39,674 bases of DNA, taken from the IMG/VR virus record IMGVR_UViG_3300024991_000028. The stretch is one strand, 5' to 3'. The notes under the pieces were generated by a model, which worked only from the letters and a program-made list of their open reading frames with translations, did no database searches and was not told the origin of the DNA. Of the stretch, positions 20,561 through 24,663 are shown one piece after another (position 1 is the first letter of the stretch; each line of letters opens with the position of its first letter). The stretch comes from a virus. Made by a program: the position numbers and the translations under genes.

Positions 20561-20812
20561 ATGACCCGGCGGTCGCCGGCACGGCTCGCCGACCCGGCCG
20601 AGGCCGAGGAGGCCGCATGGCAGGCCGTGCTCGTCGCGCAGGAACGCCTGCACCGTGCGCTGGTCGAGCACCGGCGCGCCGCGGAGGAACTGTTCCGGGA
20701 GTCCGCCGCGCGCGCTGTCGAGGACGCCGAGCTCGTCAGGAACTTCCGGGCGCTGCTGCCCTACGCGACGCGGCGGACCCGTATCCCGCCGCCGCGCCGC
20801 CCGCAGGACTGA
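20561..20812 (+). CDS. Hypothetical helical protein
   Basis: Internal ATG of ORF 20447..20812, 2 nt after the upstream stop. 83 aa. Confidence 0.5.
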   Translation: MTRRSPARLADPAEAEEAAWQAVLVAQERLHRALVEHRRAAEELFRESAARAVEDAELVRNFRALLPYATRRTRIPPPRRPQD

Positions 20813-21175
20813 TCAGGCCTCCGGGTACATCGCGTTCTCGATGAGCGCCCGCATCTTCTCGAACTCCGGCTGTTGCTTCTTCGTGAAGATGACCGAGTTC
20901 TCGTCCGCGACGGCCGCGCGCGTCTGCCGGCCGTACGTCGCCCGGGACTCGTTCCCGCCCGGGATCGTGAACTGGATGAACCCGTTGGTCATCGCCCCGG
21001 CGGGCTTGATCTGCACGGCCGTGATGGCCTTGACCGGGATGCGCTTCGACCCGCTCGCGCTGGTGAACGCCGCGAGGCCCTTCTTCGCGATCTCGACGAA
21101 CCGGCCGTCGAAGATGACCTTCCCGCCGCGGTAGCCCTCGGCGGTCGCGGGGTTTTCAGGGGTGGGGCTGGTCAT
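20813..21175 (-). CDS. Bacterial PH-like (DUF4429-type) domain protein
   Basis: 120 aa. GKVIFDGRFVEI...KRIPVKAITAVQIKPAGAMTNGFIQFTIPGG matches the remembered pattern of bacterial PH-like domains. High GC3 on the minus strand. Confidence 0.7.
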   Translation of the reverse strand: MTSPTPENPATAEGYRGGKVIFDGRFVEIAKKGLAAFTSASGSKRIPVKAITAVQIKPAGAMTNGFIQFTIPGGNESRATYGRQTRAAVADENSVIFTKKQQPEFEKMRALIENAMYPEA

Positions 21176-21184
21176 GGTCGACTC

Positions 21185-21736
21185 CTACAGCCCGACGGAC
21201 TTCGCGCCGTGGGCCGCCTGGTCCGATGTGAACCCATCGAACTTGAGCTGCTTGATCAGCCCGTCGCGAGAGAACGCAGTGAACGACATGTAGGAGGCGG
21301 CCTTCTTGTCTGCCTGCTCGTTCCAGTCCACGGTGATGTGGTCGACCGCGTACGTGGCGTCGGCCGTGCTGAACTGGTCGAACTGCAGCTGCTTGATCAG
21401 CCCGGTCCGGGAGAACCCGGAGAACGACAGATAGCTTTCCGCCTTGCGCACGGCGTTGGCCTGCGAGGTGGTCATGGCCGGAGTGGTCGGCGCCGGCGGG
21501 GCCTGGACGGCGGGCACGGTCGTCACAGCGGGAACCTGCGACGCCGCGGCGGTCGTGGGTGCCGCCGCCGTGTTCGACGGTGACTTGTCTCCACCACCGG
21601 ACGTGGCGACCGCGATGATGATGATCAGCACAACGGCGGCGGCCACGATCCACGGCCACTTCTTCCGCGACTTCTTCGGCGGCTCCTGCTGCTGGTACTG
21701 CTGGGTCGGATCGAACGGCGGCTGCGGGTAGGACAC
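21185..21736 (-). CDS. Membrane-anchored Ltp-repeat protein (superinfection-exclusion type)
   Basis: N-terminal TM segment WIVAAAVVLIIIIAVA. Two repeats, ANAVRKAESYLSFSGFSRTGLIKQLQFDQFSTADATYAV and ADKKAASYMSFTAFSRDGLIKQLKFDGFTSDQAAHGA. Confidence 0.78.
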   Translation of the reverse strand: MSYPQPPFDPTQQYQQQEPPKKSRKKWPWIVAAAVVLIIIIAVATSGGGDKSPSNTAAAPTTAAASQVPAVTTVPAVQAPPAPTTPAMTTSQANAVRKAESYLSFSGFSRTGLIKQLQFDQFSTADATYAVDHITVDWNEQADKKAASYMSFTAFSRDGLIKQLKFDGFTSDQAAHGAKSVGL

Positions 21737-21769
21737 GGGTAGCTCCTGGCTGGTGCGGTGGTGGCGGAG

Positions 21770-21793
21770 ACTCTTCGTTCGCTGGCGAAGAGT
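21770..21793. promoter_or_regulatory. 8-bp inverted repeat between the micro-ORFs and the Ltp-like gene
   Basis: ACTCTTCG (21770-21777), 8-nt loop, CGAAGAGT (21786-21793), next to a locally AT-richer patch. Confidence 0.35.
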
Positions 21794-21814
21794 TGTTACA
21801 TGGTGAGCACGGAG

Positions 21815-21991
21815 TTACGCCCCGCGCGGGTGCAGCGTCAGTTCTTCCCCCGGCCGGCCGAGAAGGACCACTCGACCGTGGAGGTGGCGGGCGAGGCGGA
21901 TGCCGTCAGTGAGGCACGCCAGCACGGCGAGGCTGTCGATGTGCACGACGACCTCGGCGGCTCGCTTGCAGGACGGGTCGAAGCACCTCAT
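21815..21991 (-). CDS. Hypothetical micro-protein (58 aa)
   Basis: ATG 21991 overlaps the TGA of the upstream minus-strand gene (ATGA). Minus-strand GC3 is about 88% by hand count. Confidence 0.5.
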   Translation of the reverse strand: MRCFDPSCKRAAEVVVHIDSLAVLACLTDGIRLARHLHGRVVLLGRPGEELTLHPRGA

Positions 21992-22212
21992 CCGGGGCCT
22001 CGCGCGGCTCCACGGGATCGGATCACGGCCCGGGCGTCCCCAGCCAGCTCCGCGATCTTGCACGGGAACGCAGCGTGCAGCGACGTCCCCGCGACCCGAC
22101 ACACTCGGCAACGGCCCGCGTTGTCGGGTCGATGCTCGGCGTTGAGTCGCTCGACGAGGCGCCCGTTCTGGGCGATCGTGTCGACGAGTTCCAGCCAGCT
22201 ACGGTCGGTCAT
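21988..22212 (-). CDS. Hypothetical Cys-containing micro-protein (74 aa)
   Basis: ATG 22212 follows AGGAGGGGA on the minus strand. Sequence MTDRSWLELVDTIAQNGRLVERLNAEHRPDNAGRCRVCRVAG..FPCKIAEL. High GC3. Confidence 0.55.
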   Translation of the reverse strand: MTDRSWLELVDTIAQNGRLVERLNAEHRPDNAGRCRVCRVAGTSLHAAFPCKIAELAGDARAVIRSRGAARGPG

Positions 22213-22238
22213 GGGTCCCCTCCTGGTGGGGATCAAGG

Positions 22239-22271
22239 CCCCCGGCGAGGTGTTGCAGCACCTGCCGGGGG
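22239..22271. promoter_or_regulatory. Strong GC hairpin upstream of the leftward cassette
   Basis: CCCCCGGC-g-AGGTG, loop ttgcag, CACCT-GCCGGGGG, 27 nt upstream of ATG 22212 on the minus strand. Confidence 0.4.
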
Positions 22272-22364
22272 CCGTCCAGCTACACCGGAGCCCGGCCGGG
22301 CCCCGTGCTCGTTCCGGCCTGCCGGCCGTTTGCACCCGGGACGAAAATCCGGGGAAGTCCGGTG

Positions 22365-22395
22365 AAATCGGCAAGAACCACGGTCAAATCGGCAA
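22365..22395. repeat. Two direct copies of AAATCGGCAA spaced 21 bp (candidate protein-binding sites)
   Basis: Copies at 22365-22374 and 22386-22395 in an AT-richer patch between divergent genes. Confidence 0.35.
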
Positions 22396-22417
22396 CGCCG
22401 CCGACACCGTCCCGTCC

Positions 22418-22627
22418 GTGCCGAAGCCGCCGCCCCGCTACCTCACGACGCCCGAAGCAGCCCGAGAGCTGAGCGTCAACGAACGCACCCTGCGGCACTG
22501 GGTCGCGACCGGGCAGATCGAGCCGGACTTCCGCACCGCCGGTGGGCACATGCGATGGGACGTCGAACGAGTCCGCGCCGAGCTCCGCGCCGGCCTGCGG
22601 GACCGCCGGGACGCGGACGAGGAGTAG
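22418..22627 (+). CDS. Excisionase-type HTH DNA-binding protein (candidate Xis/RDF)
   Basis: C-terminal part of ORF 21758..22627. LTTPEAARELSVNERTLRHWVATGQIEPDFRTAGGHMRWDVERV matches the excisionase/MerR-like HTH pattern. Convergent with int. Confidence 0.65.
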   Translation: MPKPPPRYLTTPEAARELSVNERTLRHWVATGQIEPDFRTAGGHMRWDVERVRAELRAGLRDRRDADEE

Positions 22628-22635
22628 CGACCCGC

Positions 22636-23532
22636 TCACGACGCACGCTCGCCCAGCAGTGGCCGCGGCAGTGCCGAGAGGGTCCGCGCCATATCTTGCG
22701 GCTGCACCTTCGTATAGATGTGCACGGTCGCGAGCGACGCATGGCCCAGGAGGTCCTGGACCAGCCGGAGATCGCCGGACTCGCGCAACGCCTCCGTGGC
22801 AACGCGATGCCGGAGTGAGTGGAGCCGGTCCGGGATCCCACGGATGACGCCGAAGTAGTACGCGACGGCGTCTGTTACGTGCTTGCCCTTCAACGGCTTT
22901 CCCGCGTCGGCTCGCCGGGGCCGGCCGAAGCATGGGCCGGGGGCGGTGGGCAGCAGTGGCTGGATCGCGACCCACACCCAGCCCGGCATCGGCACCTCCC
23001 TCTCGACCTCGCCCTTCCCGAGGAACCGGATGAACACACCCCCGTCCGGGTCTACGGAGACGTCCTCCGTGCGAAGGCGGGCGATCTCGTCGGCGCGGAG
23101 GCCGCACCAGCCCGCCAGCAGGAGCCACGGCCGGATCCGGTCGGGTGCCTCGACCACGGCCGCGAACAGCCGGTCCTCCGGGATCGGGCGGGGAAGCCGG
23201 CGCTTCCGCTTCGGCATCGGGAGTAGCGCCGCTGGGTTGTCGGTGCGGTACCCGCTGGCCTGCAACCAGCGGAAGTAGGGCCTGATGATGAGCGTCTGCC
23301 AGCGCAGGTAGCTGTGCGACGAGATCGTGGCTTGCCAGCGGCGGAGCTCGTACGGCGTGGCGGTGGCGGGGTCGTGGCCGACGGATTCGGCAAGCCAGGT
23401 GAGCACCATTCGCCTGGCGCGCAGGGTGTTCTCGGACATGCCACAGATGTGCATCCAGTCGAGGTGTTCCTCGAGGTGCCCGATCGGTTCCGTGATGTAC
23501 GGACCGGTCACCCGTGTCGTGCGCTTTGCCAT
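22636..23532 (-). CDS. int: Tyrosine integrase (short, XerC/D-like, about 298 aa)
   Basis: HSLRHRVATEALRESGDLRLVQDLLGHASLATVHIYTKV gives the R..H-x-x-R..H..Y catalytic pattern. Start ATG 23532 follows GAGGGGAA. Confidence 0.9.
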   Translation of the reverse strand: MAKRTTRVTGPYITEPIGHLEEHLDWMHICGMSENTLRARRMVLTWLAESVGHDPATATPYELRRWQATISSHSYLRWQTLIIRPYFRWLQASGYRTDNPAALLPMPKRKRRLPRPIPEDRLFAAVVEAPDRIRPWLLLAGWCGLRADEIARLRTEDVSVDPDGGVFIRFLGKGEVEREVPMPGWVWVAIQPLLPTAPGPCFGRPRRADAGKPLKGKHVTDAVAYYFGVIRGIPDRLHSLRHRVATEALRESGDLRLVQDLLGHASLATVHIYTKVQPQDMARTLSALPRPLLGERAS

Positions 23533-23541
23533 AGCCGTTCC

Positions 23542-23575
23542 CCTCGCATCGTCGAGCCTTACGACGTCTGCGAGG
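23542..23575 (-). promoter_or_regulatory. Hairpin overlapping the int ribosome-binding site
   Basis: CCTCGCA-t-CGTCG, loop agcctta, CGACG-tc-TGCGAGG. On the minus strand the 3' arm TGCGAGG runs into the GAGGGGAA Shine-Dalgarno sequence. Confidence 0.42.
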
Positions 23576-23675
23576 TGGGGAGCGACGCGGGTCGAGGCGT
23601 CGATACTTTCAAGCGCGAGGGTGTTGGGACATCCGCCGTCGGGTGGTTGAGGATCTTGACGCGAGTACGCTGCGT

Positions 23676-24038
23676 TCATGCCGACCGGGCCAGCGACAGA
23701 CGTGTGGGGCCAAACGGATGAGTGCCCCAACCTGCGTTTCCGACGTAACCACGATTAACTCGGAAAGCCTCCGCGTCTGTCGGGGCAGGGGTGTCGACGC
23801 CGAGCAGCCACGAGGCCGGCACTCCTGAGAGCAGCTCGACCCTGCGGGCGATAGCGATCAGGTCGCGCGGCTGCGTGCGGCCGGACTCCCAGGCGGCGTA
23901 GGCCGCCTTCGTGACGCCGAGCTTCTCGGCGAGTTCGGCCTGGTGCAGTTCGAGGACGTCGAAGCGGACCTTGCGCATGCGGTCGGCGAAGGTCCACCTG
24001 GGGACGACCGGCTTGGTCCCGGCCGCTGGCGTGGTCAT
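23676..24038 (-). CDS. XRE/CI-type HTH repressor
   Basis: Start ATG 24038. LHQAELAEKLGVTKAAYAAWESGRTQPR is an HTH_XRE pattern. The last 30 codons or so have low GC3. Confidence 0.8.
   Translation of the reverse strand: MTTPAAGTKPVVPRWTFADRMRKVRFDVLELHQAELAEKLGVTKAAYAAWESGRTQPRDLIAIARRVELLSGVPASWLLGVDTPAPTDAEAFRVNRGYVGNAGWGTHPFGPTRLSLARSA
23737..23766. other. 7-bp inverted repeat around an AT-richer core inside the repressor 3' tail (candidate attP core region)
   Basis: TTTCCGA (23737-23743), loop cgtaaccacgattaac, TCGGAAA (23760-23766). Lowest-GC patch of the lysogeny region. Confidence 0.3.
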
Positions 24039-24151
24039 GCGACGAGTGTAACCACGTCTCCCACAAACGCACCAGAGTGCACTACGCCGCACCCGGGAGA
24101 CACGCGGCACGTATTTGTGTGTTGAGAGTAAGTCTGGTTACATACTGCCCC
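24039..24151. promoter_or_regulatory. Divergent switch region with two probable leaderless promoters
   Basis: Minus strand: TGGTTACACT + 6 nt + ATG 24038. Plus strand: TGGTTACATACT + 5-7 nt + ATG 24152. No Shine-Dalgarno sequence before either start. Confidence 0.5.
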
Positions 24152-24361
24152 ATGCCCAGTAACCCCGCTTACAGCGACGAGGACCTGGTTACGGTCGCCG
24201 TCGCAGCCGAGCTCCTGGGGGTCCACCGGAACACGCTCCGCCGCTGGGTCGACGCCGGCGAACTCCCCGAGCGCCGCACCCCCGGCAACCACCGCCTGTT
24301 CCGAGTCGGTGACCTCCGCAAGTTGAACGTCCCCACCATCACGAAGCCGCAGGCCTCGTGA
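24152..24361 (+). CDS. Excisionase-type HTH DNA-binding protein in the Cro position
   Basis: Internal ATG of ORF 24077..24361. VAVAAELLGVHRNTLRRWVDAGELPERRTPGNHRLFRVGDL. Divergent from the repressor. Confidence 0.75.
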   Translation: MPSNPAYSDEDLVTVAVAAELLGVHRNTLRRWVDAGELPERRTPGNHRLFRVGDLRKLNVPTITKPQAS

Positions 24362-24663
24362 CCGGCGACAACAAGAGCTGGAACCAGCCGCCCCAGCTCC
24401 TCACACCCGTCGTCGAGAACACCCAAGCCGCCCGCGTCGCCCGACGCCGCGCCTTCCGCACGATGTTCGACTACGCCCCCGAGGCCCGCCGCTACGTGCC
24501 GCAGCCCTACAGGAACCGACTGACTCCCGAGCAGGCCGTCGACCACGACGACCACGCCGAGACGGGGGAGTGGGGCGACGACCTAACCGACTCGCTGCTC
24601 GACGTCATCGAGCGCCACTCCAACGGCGAACGGGCCGGCGCTGCACACGCCGACCCGTCCTGA
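24358..24663 (+). CDS. Hypothetical protein
   Basis: GTGA overlap, 101 aa, GC3-rich. Confidence 0.6.
   Translation: MTGDNKSWNQPPQLLTPVVENTQAARVARRRAFRTMFDYAPEARRYVPQPYRNRLTPEQAVDHDDHAETGEWGDDLTDSLLDVIERHSNGERAGAAHADPS

What the first reader, a model, noticed from the sequence alone, without database searches (positions are those of the whole stretch)
20813..22271. Leftward four-gene lysogeny-side cassette: two coupled micro-ORFs, a TM-anchored Ltp-repeat protein and a PH-like protein (candidate multi-component exclusion or defence module)
Seen in the sequence:
- Four minus-strand ORFs lie between the late operon and xis/int, in a genome otherwise almost entirely on the + strand.
- By hand count, minus-strand GC3 is higher than that of the long + strand shadow ORF 21758..22627.
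- The first two ORFs (74 aa with RCRVC...FPC, and 58 aa) are joined by an ATGA overlap at 21988-21991 and are preceded by a strong hairpin at 22239-22271.
- An 8-bp inverted repeat at 21770-21793 separates them from the last two genes.

Established knowledge: the paired ..KAESYLSFSGFSRTGLIKQLQFDQFS.. and ..AASYMSFTAFSRDGLIKQLKFDGFT.. repeats are the Ltp type. Its prototype, Streptococcus phage TP-J34 Ltp, blocks DNA injection by incoming phages. Here the protein is TM-anchored and has no lipobox Cys.

Inference: the PH-like protein (GFIQFTIPGG core) and the two micro-proteins have no assigned role. Their fixed association with an Ltp-like gene in a prophage-expressed position suggests an undescribed multi-part exclusion, abortive-infection or toxin-antitoxin-like system.
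Basis: partly seen in the sequence, partly recalled or inferred. Interest (0 to 1): 0.7.

Follow-up and report, generated by a model that had tools for sequence, protein, structure and literature searches.

The report
Prophage accessory locus with swappable cargo
The four leftward genes are real, but they are not one four-part machine: a conserved pair of tiny cysteine-rich proteins sits in front of a promoter-like site and a slot where related phages carry different accessory genes, here an Ltp-type exclusion protein and an unrelated DUF4429 protein.

Summary
The sequence observations hold. Four minus-strand genes, the ATGA overlap, the upstream hairpin, the Ltp repeats, the membrane anchor without a lipobox Cys and the DUF4429 domain are all there.

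The "fixed four-gene association" does not hold. In relatives (Pseudonocardia prophages and metagenomic phage contigs), micro1 and micro2 stay next to the integrase while the genes downstream vary:
- Ltp plus DUF4429 (this phage)
- Ltp alone
- DUF4429 alone
- two unrelated lipoproteins
- another membrane-anchored protein

Ltp and DUF4429 also occur alone in many other phages.

Both micro-ORFs are probably coding. micro1 belongs to a large, unnamed actinobacterial small-protein family (141 clusters) with the signature H-x7-CxxC-x9-12-[W/F]PC. Its predicted fold is confident (pLDDT 95) and has no structural match.

A bipartite motif, GTAACA-N16-CGAA, lies between micro2 and the cargo. It is conserved in 6 of 7 locus types despite divergent spacers, and it nearly equals the actinobacterial sigma-D (ECF) promoter consensus.

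Best reading: this is a modular accessory locus at the attR end of a temperate phage. The phage also appears to use integration-dependent immunity. Ltp probably blocks DNA injection by incoming phages. The roles of micro1, micro2 and DUF4429 are unknown. Expression and phenotype were not tested.

The parts
22237..22273 (-). Strong stem-loop about 20 nt upstream of the micro1 start codon. It is conserved as a structure, not as a sequence.
   Evidence: (I25). Seven loci carry a 12-15 bp stem at the same position, with five different stem sequences. In L016, L030 and L032 it lies within about 35 nt of the int stop codon.
22213..22236 (-). micro1 translation-initiation region. The sequence is TTGATCCCCACCAGGAGGGGACC before the ATG. 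The Shine-Dalgarno GGAGG sits in a small UCCCC/GGGGA stem-loop.
   Evidence: GGAGGGGACCCATG is invariant in six loci. In L035 the small stem changes on both sides (CGCC/GGCG), as seen.
21988..22212 (-). micro1, 74 aa. A small basic protein with the invariant residues H27, C35, C38, P50 and C51; probably metal-binding.
   Evidence: The family has 141 clusters at E < 1e-3, and 134 of 141 carry H-x7-CxxC-x9-12-[WF]PC. AlphaFold2 gives pLDDT 95. dN/dS is 0.28 and the codon log-odds is +23.7 bits.
21815..21991 (-). micro2, 58 aa. It is translationally coupled to micro1 through the ATGA overlap. C3, C8 and C26 are conserved.
   Evidence: It is exactly 58 codons long in seven loci. dN/dS is 0.41, against 1.47 for the + shadow frame. 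The AlphaFold2 model has pLDDT 73.
21774..21799 (-). Bipartite promoter-like motif GTAACA-N16-CGAA, of sigma-D / ECF type, ahead of the cargo genes.
   Evidence: it is the only match in the window, against 0.05 expected; it is conserved in 6 of 7 locus types, with pairwise identity 1.0 / 0.35 / 0.92 for the -35 element, spacer and -10 element. The published consensus is GTAACA/G-N16-CGAT (PMC13537577; PMC6338062).
21185..21736 (-). Ltp-type protein, 183 aa. From N to C: a cytoplasmic tail, one transmembrane helix (aa 30-48), a Pro/Thr/Ala-rich linker, and two Ltp repeats predicted to lie outside the membrane.
   Evidence: PF07553 twice, E = 3e-28; phrog_4980, superinfection exclusion, E = 2e-42; PDB 4EQQ, E = 5e-9; no Cys; transmembrane helix; D1, internal 89-nt duplication.
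20813..21175 (-). DUF4429 protein, 120 aa, with no hydrophobic segment. It starts 9 nt after the Ltp stop codon, so it is probably co-transcribed with Ltp. Relatives show it is a gene-sized insertion.
   Evidence: PF14472, E = 3e-15; it is absent from L015-L017, with clean indel boundaries; an 84%-identical copy directly follows micro2 in L031. One search gives the hydropathy profile.
22421..22627 (+). Context: an Xis-like HTH_17/MerR DNA-binding gene, divergent from micro1. It is absent from L016, L030 and L032.
   Evidence: MerR E = 2.5e-7, HTH_17 E = 2e-6; the 'excise' model scores below its cut-off.
22360..22395 (+). Context: two 15-nt direct repeats, CGGTSAAATCGGCAA, spaced 21 bp apart between the xis start and the micro1 hairpin. 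They are candidate regulator-binding sites.
   Evidence: (D3), and (conserved in L015).
22636..23532 (-). Context: tyrosine integrase, 298 aa as called publicly.
23676..24038 (-). Context: HTH_3 repressor-like gene whose 3' part contains the attP core (about 23738-23770). It encodes 120 aa in the free phage and 97 aa in the prophage.

Best explanation
The region is a modular accessory ("moron") locus, not a four-component system. It sits at the integrase-proximal (attR) end of a temperate siphophage whose host was named Pseudonocardia sp. SCN 73-27 by a public source.

Unit A, conserved in all relatives:
- a stem-loop;
- a partly sequestered ribosome-binding site;
- micro1 and micro2, joined by translational coupling.
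Both are small Cys/His proteins. micro1 probably binds a metal through H27, C35, C38 and C51. With no room for a promoter between the hairpin and the ribosome-binding site, they are most likely transcribed through the stem-loop from upstream: from the int promoter, or from the xis-micro1 intergenic region. I infer that they act in the cytoplasm as small regulatory or protein-binding factors tied to int and lysogeny, rather than as partners of any particular cargo.

Unit B, variable between relatives:
- a promoter-like site, GTAACA-N16-CGAA, that nearly equals the host sigma-D (cell-envelope ECF sigma) consensus;
- whatever cargo the phage carries behind it.
Here the cargo is Ltp plus DUF4429, co-transcribed. 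The Ltp protein is anchored N-in/C-out by a signal-anchor helix and displays two Ltp repeats on the outer face of the membrane. By analogy with TP-J34 Ltp, it would bind the tape-measure protein of an incoming siphophage and stop DNA injection. DUF4429 is an independently mobile, cytoplasmic accessory gene of unknown action.

Shown: gene reality, modularity, family memberships, motif conservation and structural conservation of the hairpin.
Inferred: lysogenic expression, sigma-D dependence, the exclusion phenotype and metal binding.
For: Modularity:
- Searches show micro1 and micro2 constant next to int in eight locus types, with five different cargo configurations.
- DUF4429 is a clean gene-sized indel relative to L015-L017.
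- It takes the first cargo position in L031.

Coding status of the micro-ORFs:
- invariant ribosome-binding site and ATG, and a conserved ATGA overlap;
- micro2 is 58 codons long in seven loci;
- dN/dS is 0.28 for micro1 and 0.41 for micro2;
- codon log-odds are comparable with Ltp and DUF4429.

micro1 family.

Promoter-like motif:
- Unique in the window.
- Conserved at fixed spacing across divergent spacers.
- Matches the published sigma-D consensus.
- A perfect GTAACG-N16-CGAT lies about 50 nt upstream of the Ltp-like gene of Gordonia phage Stormageddon.

Ltp.

Position at the prophage end, opposite in orientation to the late genes.
Against: - No expression data exist, so lysogenic transcription is assumed from position and orientation only.
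- The -10 element is CGAA, not CGAT, and one locus (L025) has CAAA. Whether the host has a sigma-D orthologue was not checked.
- Ten other Ltp loci lack the motif, so it is not a general feature of Ltp genes.
- Shared ancestry of the seven loci inflates the apparent conservation.
- The cargo after micro2 is an exported envelope protein in six of seven locus types. This could mean the micro pair does serve the cargo (see rival 4).
- Neither micro1 nor micro2 has a homologue of known function or a structural match. Their assigned role is therefore a guess.
- TP-J34 Ltp acts in a Gram-positive host without a complex actinobacterial envelope.
Confidence: 0.55

Rival explanations
1. One reading: the four proteins form one undescribed multi-component exclusion, abortive-infection or toxin-antitoxin-like system.
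For: All four genes are co-oriented and tightly spaced, and identical copies occur in more than 60 assemblies. micro1 and micro2 are coupled, and Ltp and DUF4429 are 9 nt apart.
Against: The more than 60 copies are the same phage, so they are not independent. In diverged relatives the genes assort independently: Ltp without DUF4429, DUF4429 without Ltp, and micro1/micro2 with unrelated cargo. Ltp and DUF4429 are each found alone in many phages. No protein has a significant PADLOC match.
Confidence: 0.05
2. micro1 and micro2 are a two-gene toxin-antitoxin or abortive-infection pair that stabilises the prophage or kills infected cells, independently of the cargo.
For: They are two small, translationally coupled genes in a prophage, always together in the core group. 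The ribosome-binding site lies in a small stem, which suggests tightly limited translation.
Against: micro1 homologues occur without any micro2: standalone in chromosomes (L027), beside Xre/DUF397 genes (L028, L029), or with a different 52-aa membrane peptide (L040). L030 and L031 carry a 121-aa gene between the two. No significant similarity to any model in Pfam, NCBIfam or PADLOC. Neither protein has a recognisable toxin fold.
Confidence: 0.12
3. The micro-ORFs are not genes. The real feature is the long + strand ORF 21758-22627 (an extended xis), or the region is non-coding regulatory DNA.
For: The + frame is open for 289 codons. One public gene caller extends xis to 133 aa. Over micro1 the + frame shows a dN/dS as low as micro1's own (0.24 against 0.28), because the third codon positions coincide.
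Against: Over micro2 the + frame has dN/dS 1.47. Over micro1 its codon log-odds is -47 bits, against +23.7 bits for micro1. L016, L030 and L032 have no xis, yet they keep micro1 and micro2 with their ribosome-binding site, ATG and ATGA overlap intact. micro1 has 141 homologous clusters and a pLDDT-95 model built from that alignment.
Confidence: 0.03
4. The constant unit serves the cargo. micro1 and micro2 would be dedicated regulators of the sigma-D-like promoter, or cytoplasmic helpers for the export or insertion of whatever envelope protein sits downstream. Together they would form a conserved "expression platform" for swappable cargo.
For: micro2 always ends at or just before the GTAACA element. 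Five of the six complete or near-complete locus types carry an exported or membrane protein immediately downstream. The constant and variable parts meet exactly at the promoter-like motif.
Against: In L031 the cargo is cytoplasmic DUF4429. micro1 relatives occur in unrelated contexts. Exclusion proteins are usually envelope proteins anyway, so the pattern may carry no information. There is no DNA-binding or chaperone signature.
Confidence: 0.2

Closest known systems
Ltp of Streptococcus thermophilus phage TP-J34 (Pfam PF07553; PDB 4EQQ), a superinfection-exclusion lipoprotein
   Same: Both have two tandem Ltp repeats, with direct sequence similarity over both repeats (E = 5e-9). Both are prophage-encoded near the integrase. 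The window protein falls in PHROG families annotated as superinfection exclusion. Ltp is described as the prototype of a widespread family of surface-exposed exclusion proteins (PMC3952083).
   Different: Here the protein is anchored by an uncleaved transmembrane helix and contains no Cys at all, instead of a lipobox-acylated Cys. A relative, L035, does carry a lipobox version. The host is an actinobacterium. The gene sits behind an ECF-type promoter-like motif and is followed by DUF4429. Exclusion activity and the target are untested.
Variable, lysogenically expressed defence region of temperate actinophages (Cluster N mycobacteriophages and phage Sbash; PMC6426596 and bioRxiv 10.1101/2023.01.03.522681, seen; details of Cluster N partly from memory)
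   Same: Both are a stretch of variable accessory genes between the end of the late or lysis genes and the integrase/immunity cassette, differing between otherwise similar phages. From memory, Cluster N phages also use integration-dependent immunity, as this phage appears to.
   Different: The gene content is different. Here a conserved small-protein pair and a conserved promoter-like site flank the variable slot. There is no experimental evidence of expression or defence.
Sigma-D (ECF) dependent promoters of Corynebacterium glutamicum and Mycobacterium abscessus
   Same: The -35 element GTAACA is identical, and the spacing of 16 nt to CGA(N) is the same as in GTAACA/G-N16-CGAT. Sigma-D regulons encode cell-envelope proteins, as does most of the cargo here.
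   Different: The last -10 base is A, not T, and L025 has CAAA. Recognition by any sigma factor is untested, and the host's sigma-D was not examined.
Integration-dependent immunity of mycobacteriophage BPs and relatives (PMC4557955)
   Same: The attP core lies inside the 3' part of the repressor gene. The prophage form is shorter: 97 aa against 120 aa here, 103 against 136 in BPs. After integration, int and rep end up at opposite ends of the prophage.
   Different: This concerns the neighbouring genes, not the four-gene cassette. attB is the 3' end of a response-regulator gene. From memory, the BPs-type phages integrate at tRNA genes. Instability of the long form and its C-terminal tag are untested.
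Type II toxin-antitoxin modules
   Same: Two small overlapping genes on a mobile element.
   Different: There is no significant match to any model in the libraries searched (Pfam, NCBIfam, PADLOC). micro1 relatives stand alone or have other partners. A third gene can separate the pair.

Membership tests
Ltp-type superinfection exclusion proteins (TP-J34 Ltp) | Two tandem Ltp repeat domains (Pfam PF07553) | tested here: met
   PF07553, two stretches, E = 3.1e-28; aligns to PDB 4EQQ over both repeats, E = 5.4e-9.
Ltp-type superinfection exclusion proteins (TP-J34 Ltp) | Lipoprotein signal peptide with a lipobox Cys for surface anchoring | tested here: not met
   no Cys in the protein. The anchor is a single hydrophobic helix (aa 30-48) after a positively charged N-terminal tail. 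The repeats would still be displayed outside the membrane, so the topology is functionally equivalent.
Ltp-type superinfection exclusion proteins (TP-J34 Ltp) | Expressed from the prophage | not testable with these tools
   Only position and orientation are known: the attR end, opposite to the late genes. No transcript data.
Ltp-type superinfection exclusion proteins (TP-J34 Ltp) | Blocks DNA injection of superinfecting phages by acting on their tape-measure protein | not testable with these tools
   Needs infection assays. The mechanism is recalled from the TP-J34 literature.
DUF4429 (Pfam PF14472) | Match to the family model above its curated cut-off | tested here: met
   57.1 bits against a cut-off of 25, covering profile positions 3-94 of 95.
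Neither the sequence nor a five-sequence profile found anything significant in the PDB. Membership of DUF4429 in the PH clan is from memory only.
Multi-gene defence system (co-inherited components) | Components co-occur across diverged genomes | tested here: not met
   matrix. Ltp and DUF4429 each occur without the other, and micro1/micro2 occur with unrelated cargo.
Type II toxin-antitoxin pair (micro1/micro2) | Obligate pairing of the two genes | tested here: not met
   micro1 relatives occur without micro2 in L027-L029 and L040. A 121-aa gene is inserted between the two in L030 and L031.
Type II toxin-antitoxin pair (micro1/micro2) | Homology to a known toxin or antitoxin family | tested here: not met
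   Searches gave no significant match. Foldseek gave only non-significant matches.
Sigma-D / ECF-dependent promoter | -35 GTAACA/G and -10 CGAT (GAT) separated by 16 nt (17-18 to GAT) | tested here: inconclusive
   GTAACA-N16-CGAA, one mismatch in the -10 element, in 6 of 7 locus types. Consensus taken.
Sigma-D / ECF-dependent promoter | Transcription start downstream of the motif that depends on sigma-D | not testable with these tools
   Needs 5'-end mapping and a sigD mutant, or in vitro transcription.
Zinc-binding anti-sigma (ZAS, HxxxCxxC), considered for micro1 | H-x3-C-x2-C motif and a match to the zf-HC2 model | tested here: not met
   The micro1 family has H-x7-C-x2-C-x9-12-PC. No family member matched zf-HC2 at E <= 0.01.
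Integration-dependent immunity (neighbouring genes) | attP core inside the repressor gene, so that integration shortens the repressor | tested here: met
   The junctions lie at window 23738 and 23770, inside rep (23676-24038). The repressor is 120 aa in the free form and 97 aa in three prophage copies.
Integration-dependent immunity (neighbouring genes) | The long form is inactive because of a C-terminal degradation tag | not testable with these tools
   The removed tail is YVGNAGWGTHPFGPTRLSLARSA. Its effect on stability is unknown.

The most novel reading that the evidence does not exclude
Hairpin, micro1, micro2 and GTAACA-N16-CGAA together form a conserved "expression platform". Through it, this group of actinobacterial temperate phages would wire interchangeable exclusion or envelope genes into the host's sigma-D cell-envelope regulon. 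micro1 would be the founding member of a large, undescribed family of small metal-binding actinobacterial proteins (H-x7-CxxC-x9-12-WPC) with a new fold. With micro2, it would act as a regulator of that platform or of the int/lysogeny circuit.
Probability: 0.25. Interest if true: 0.6.

Novelty: new variant of a known kind. Interest (0 to 1): 0.4.

Why it matters
If the modular reading is right, it has four consequences:
- It shows how this group of actinobacterial phages exchanges exclusion and envelope genes at one defined slot behind one conserved control region.
- It suggests that a prophage can place such genes under a host envelope-stress sigma factor rather than under a phage promoter.
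- It puts a name and a testable signature on a family of at least 141 clusters of small Cys/His proteins that no database describes.
- It warns against inferring multi-gene defence systems from tight spacing in a single genome.

The Ltp and DUF4429 genes themselves are ordinary members of known families.

Tried and rejected
Searches that found nothing useful:
- tblastn of micro1 and micro2 against 50,697 phage records: no match.
- Megablast of the region: only a 107-bp hit in Gordonia phage Walrus.
- Pfam, PHROGs, NCBIfam and PADLOC for both micro proteins: nothing significant. The same was true for 48 members of the micro1 family.
- PDB sequence search with the micro1 profile: nothing.
- Foldseek of the micro1 model against PDB and BFVD, and of the micro2 model against PDB: best E-values above 1. 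The weak Dmd-antitoxin and zinc-finger hits for micro2 are not significant and were not used.
- Full-text search for "DUF4429": no paper.
- DUF4429 sequence and profile against the PDB: nothing significant.
- Metagenome scans with the micro2 and micro1 alignments: zero new loci and one already-known locus.
- Broad micro1 alignments were too divergent for pattern-based locus searches.

Ideas rejected:
- The 8-bp inverted repeat as a conserved structure. It does not fold in L016.
- The + strand ORF.
- GC3 alone as evidence for micro1, because its third codon positions coincide with those of the + frame.
- A sigma-70-type promoter or a canonical terminator in 20600-24400. The scan found none that is relevant.
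- The sigma-D-like motif as a general feature of Ltp genes. It was found in 1 of 11 other Ltp loci.
- RNAalifold on a MAFFT alignment of the hairpins recovered only the outer pairs, because the stems differ in sequence and length. The single-sequence folds are the evidence used.
Full report
WHAT THE WINDOW IS

The window is a whole 39,674-bp metagenomic contig (JGI 3300024981 Ga0209934_1000592) with 72% G+C. It carries tail, lysis, integrase and repressor genes. Copies with identical cassette proteins occur in more than 60 assemblies, some free or circularly permuted and some integrated next to host genes. One source names the host as Pseudonocardia sp. SCN 73-27. The DNA has no close relative among deposited phages.

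CHECKING THE OBSERVATION

| Gene | Coordinates | Length |
|---|---|---|
| DUF4429 protein | 20813-21175 | 120 aa |
| Ltp-like protein | 21185-21736 | 183 aa |
| micro2 | 21815-21991 | 58 aa |
| micro1 | 21988-22212 | 74 aa |

- Public gene callers call all four.
- The ATGA overlap at 21988-21991 is read directly.
- The hairpin is at 22237-22273.
- The 8-bp inverted repeat is present but does not fold in the relative L016.
- Pfam gives PF07553 (Ltp) twice, E = 3e-28, and PF14472 (DUF4429), E = 3e-15.
- PHROGs places the Ltp-like protein in families annotated as superinfection exclusion.
- The Ltp-like protein aligns with PDB 4EQQ over both repeats (E = 5e-9). I take 4EQQ to be the TP-J34 Ltp structure from memory.
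- It has no cysteine. Its one hydrophobic helix (aa 30-48) follows a positively charged tail. This gives an N-in/C-out signal anchor rather than a lipoprotein.

ARE THE MICRO-ORFS GENES?

GC3 cannot settle micro1, because its third codon positions coincide with those of the 289-codon + strand ORF. For the same reason, dN/dS is equally low in both frames over micro1 (0.28 and 0.24). Other evidence does separate them:

- A codon-usage model was trained on nine long genes of the window. It gives micro1 +23.7 bits (0.32 per codon, like Ltp and DUF4429) and the + frame over the same bases -47 bits.
- Over micro2 the + frame has dN/dS 1.47, against 0.41 for micro2.
- The ribosome-binding site and start (GGAGGGGACCCATG) are invariant in six loci, and the ATGA overlap is conserved.
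- micro2 is exactly 58 codons long in seven loci.
- Three relatives have no xis at all and still keep both micro-ORFs.

I conclude both are coding.

THE ASSOCIATION IS NOT FIXED

Diverged relatives were found through exact and profile protein searches and contig look-ups. They were compared in one tblastn matrix.

| Locus | Arrangement |
|---|---|
| Window | int, xis, micro1, micro2, Ltp, DUF4429 |
| L015, L018, L026 (Pseudonocardia sp. N23) | same, without DUF4429 |
| L016, L017 | same, without DUF4429 (L016/L017 also lack xis) |
| L025 | micro1, micro2, then a lipobox lipoprotein |
| L030 | micro1, an extra 121-aa gene, micro2, then a different membrane-anchored protein |
| L031 | the 121-aa gene, micro2, then DUF4429 directly (84% identical to the window's copy), no Ltp |
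| L032-L034 | int, micro1, an uncalled micro2 homologue, then a 233-aa lipoprotein |
| L035-L037 | int, xis, micro1, an uncalled and diverged micro2, then a lipobox Ltp |

The alignment shows DUF4429 as a clean gene-sized insertion between the Ltp stop codon and the converging late gene.

Ltp also occurs without the micro-ORFs or DUF4429 in L043-L045. About 100 Gordonia phages gave a single-gene Ltp hit, and eight of those records were inspected. DUF4429 occurs alone between repressor and integrase in Streptococcus and Ruminococcus phages, and reversed inside the tail operon of a Microbacterium phage.

The four genes are therefore at least three independently assorting units: the micro pair, Ltp and DUF4429.

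THE CONSTANT UNIT

micro1
- An exhaustive HMMER search gave 141 clusters at E < 1e-3.
- H27, C35, C38, P50, C51 and A60 are invariant in a 48-sequence alignment.
- 134 of the 141 carry H-x7-C-x2-C-x9-12-[W/F]PC.
- No Pfam, NCBIfam or PHROG family covers them, and no PDB sequence matches.
- AlphaFold2 with that alignment gives a confident model (pLDDT 95, pTM 0.80): two helices, a beta-hairpin carrying CxxC, and a long C-terminal helix that starts right after C51.
- Foldseek finds nothing similar in the PDB or BFVD.
- The ligand pattern suggests a zinc knuckle.
- More distant members sit in other phage positions or in chromosomes, alone or beside Xre/DUF397 genes.

micro2
- The family is narrow.
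- C3, C8 and C26 are conserved.
- The model has medium confidence (pLDDT 73) and a beta-beta-alpha-beta-beta layout, with no structural match.

The hairpin
- It recurs in seven loci with five different stem sequences.
- Where xis is absent, it lies within about 35 nt of the int stop codon.
- Only about 20 nt separate it from the micro1 start, so micro1 must be transcribed through it.
- It may attenuate read-through from int, or it may stabilise the 5' end of the transcript. I cannot tell which.
- A second small stem pairs UCCCC with the GGGGA of the ribosome-binding site. L035 changes both sides of this stem.

THE BOUNDARY BETWEEN CONSTANT AND VARIABLE PARTS

Anchoring the micro2-to-cargo spacers on GTAACA shows CGAA exactly 16 nt later in six of seven locus types; L025 has GTAACG-N16-CAAA. 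Pairwise identity is 1.0 for GTAAC, 0.35 for the spacer and 0.92 for CGAA.

In the window the pattern GTAAC-N17-CGAA occurs once, at 21774-21799 on the minus strand, against 0.05 expected by chance.

The motif nearly equals the sigma-D (ECF) promoter consensus. That consensus is GTAACA/G-N16-CGAT in Mycobacterium abscessus (PMC13537577) and GTAACA/G with -10 GAT in Corynebacterium glutamicum (PMC6338062). Both regulons encode cell-envelope proteins.

One independent case supports a link. The Ltp-like gene 137 of Gordonia phage Stormageddon has a perfect GTAACG-N16-CGAT about 50 nt upstream. Ten other Ltp loci have none.

I treat this as a candidate ECF-type cargo promoter.

HOW IT MOST LIKELY WORKS

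- Shown: modular architecture, family memberships and conserved signals.
- Inferred: in the lysogen the cargo is transcribed from the ECF-like promoter. Ltp inserts N-in/C-out and presents its two repeats outside the membrane. There it blocks DNA injection by incoming siphophages through their tape-measure protein, as reported for TP-J34 Ltp (mechanism from memory; family description in PMC3952083).
- DUF4429 is cytoplasmic and co-transcribed with Ltp. It recurs in lysogeny modules of unrelated phages, so it is a plausible but uncharacterised lysogenic-conversion or defence gene.
- micro1 and micro2 are most likely small cytoplasmic metal-binding regulators or protein-binding factors tied to int and lysogeny. 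This part is weak.

COMPARISON AND NOVELTY

- Ltp is a new member of a known family with a variant anchor.
- The locus as a whole resembles the variable, lysogenically expressed defence regions of temperate actinophages.
- What appears undescribed: the micro1 family, the conserved micro1-micro2 pair, and the ECF-like site in front of a swappable slot.
- Nothing was tested for expression or phenotype.

SIDE FINDING: THE IMMUNITY SYSTEM

Homology with integrated copies stops at window 23770 on one side and at 23738 on the other, inside the HTH_3 repressor gene. The repressor is 120 aa in the free form and 97 aa in prophages. The 3' end of a host response-regulator gene is rebuilt by phage sequence. 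This matches the integration-dependent immunity layout of mycobacteriophage BPs (PMC4557955).

Noticed in passing
window 23676-24038 (rep), attP core about 23738-23770; L021, L022, L024, L010: The attP core (AACCACGA) lies inside the 3' part of the HTH_3 repressor gene. The free phage encodes 120 aa and the prophage 97 aa, losing YVGNAGWGTHPFGPTRLSLARSA. Integration occurs at the 3' end of a host response-regulator gene, whose last codons (NHD*) are rebuilt by phage DNA. The other junction abuts a DraK-like histidine kinase gene. This is the integration-dependent immunity layout known from mycobacteriophage BPs, here in a phage whose host is named Pseudonocardia sp. and at a protein-coding attB.
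   Followed up: partly
window 23745, 24048, 24159, 24184: GTAACCACG, exact or with one mismatch, occurs four times within 450 bp around the repressor gene and the rep-cro intergenic region. Window-wide there are six matches at up to one mismatch, which is no more than chance in number, but four of them cluster here. They are candidate operator half-sites. One copy overlaps the attP core.
   Followed up: no
window 22360-22395 (possibly a third degenerate copy near 22339): Direct repeats CGGTSAAATCGGCAA spaced 21 bp apart, just upstream of the Xis-like gene and between it and the micro1 hairpin. They are conserved in L015, and L016, L030 and L032, which lack xis, have no xis-to-hairpin intergenic region. 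They probably bind a regulator of the divergent xis and micro1 region.
   Followed up: partly
window 22280-22300; L032 3900-3933: The frame ending at the TAG just before the hairpin reads ...GPGRAPV* in the window, where it is antisense to xis. It matches the true C-terminus of the integrase in L032 (...APGRAPV*). This suggests that the xis gene was inserted, or lost, between int and its terminal stem-loop during the divergence of these phages.
   Followed up: no
L030 3003-3368; L031 3-137: A 121-aa gene with no Pfam match is inserted between micro1 and micro2 in two relatives. It ends with the same ...ARGSG* and ATGA coupling to micro2 that micro1 uses elsewhere.
   Followed up: no
L049 (Gordonia phage Stormageddon, NC_054726.1) 865-890: A perfect sigma-D consensus, GTAACG-N16-CGAT, lies about 50 nt upstream of the Ltp-like "superinfection exclusion" gene 137. 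It is absent upstream of the Ltp-like genes in ten other loci examined.
   Followed up: partly
window 20800-20825: The DUF4429 gene and the last + strand late gene (83 aa, 20561-20812) end stop-to-stop around a TGATCA-centred imperfect palindrome. The same boundary sequence follows the Ltp stop in relatives that lack DUF4429.
   Followed up: partly
protein P0004 (identical to micro2): One public source labels the identical 58-aa protein as Salana multivorans, whereas micro1 is labelled Pseudonocardia sp. SCN 73-27. This is probably a binning artefact of metagenome-assembled genomes, but it could indicate a second host.
   Followed up: no
L003 (Ruminococcus phage phiRg519T2 gp22) C-terminus: The DUF4429 homologue carries an extra C-terminal tail (…EILKFKSLLDQGIITEDEFAIKKKQILGL). 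From memory it resembles a SHOCT motif. The window's DUF4429 protein lacks it.
   Followed up: no
L023 1-1565: One otherwise identical contig (KANT15-1 scaffold_2109) diverges from the window to the left of about 23385, inside int, and carries different genes there. It may be a recombinant or an assembly variant.
   Followed up: no
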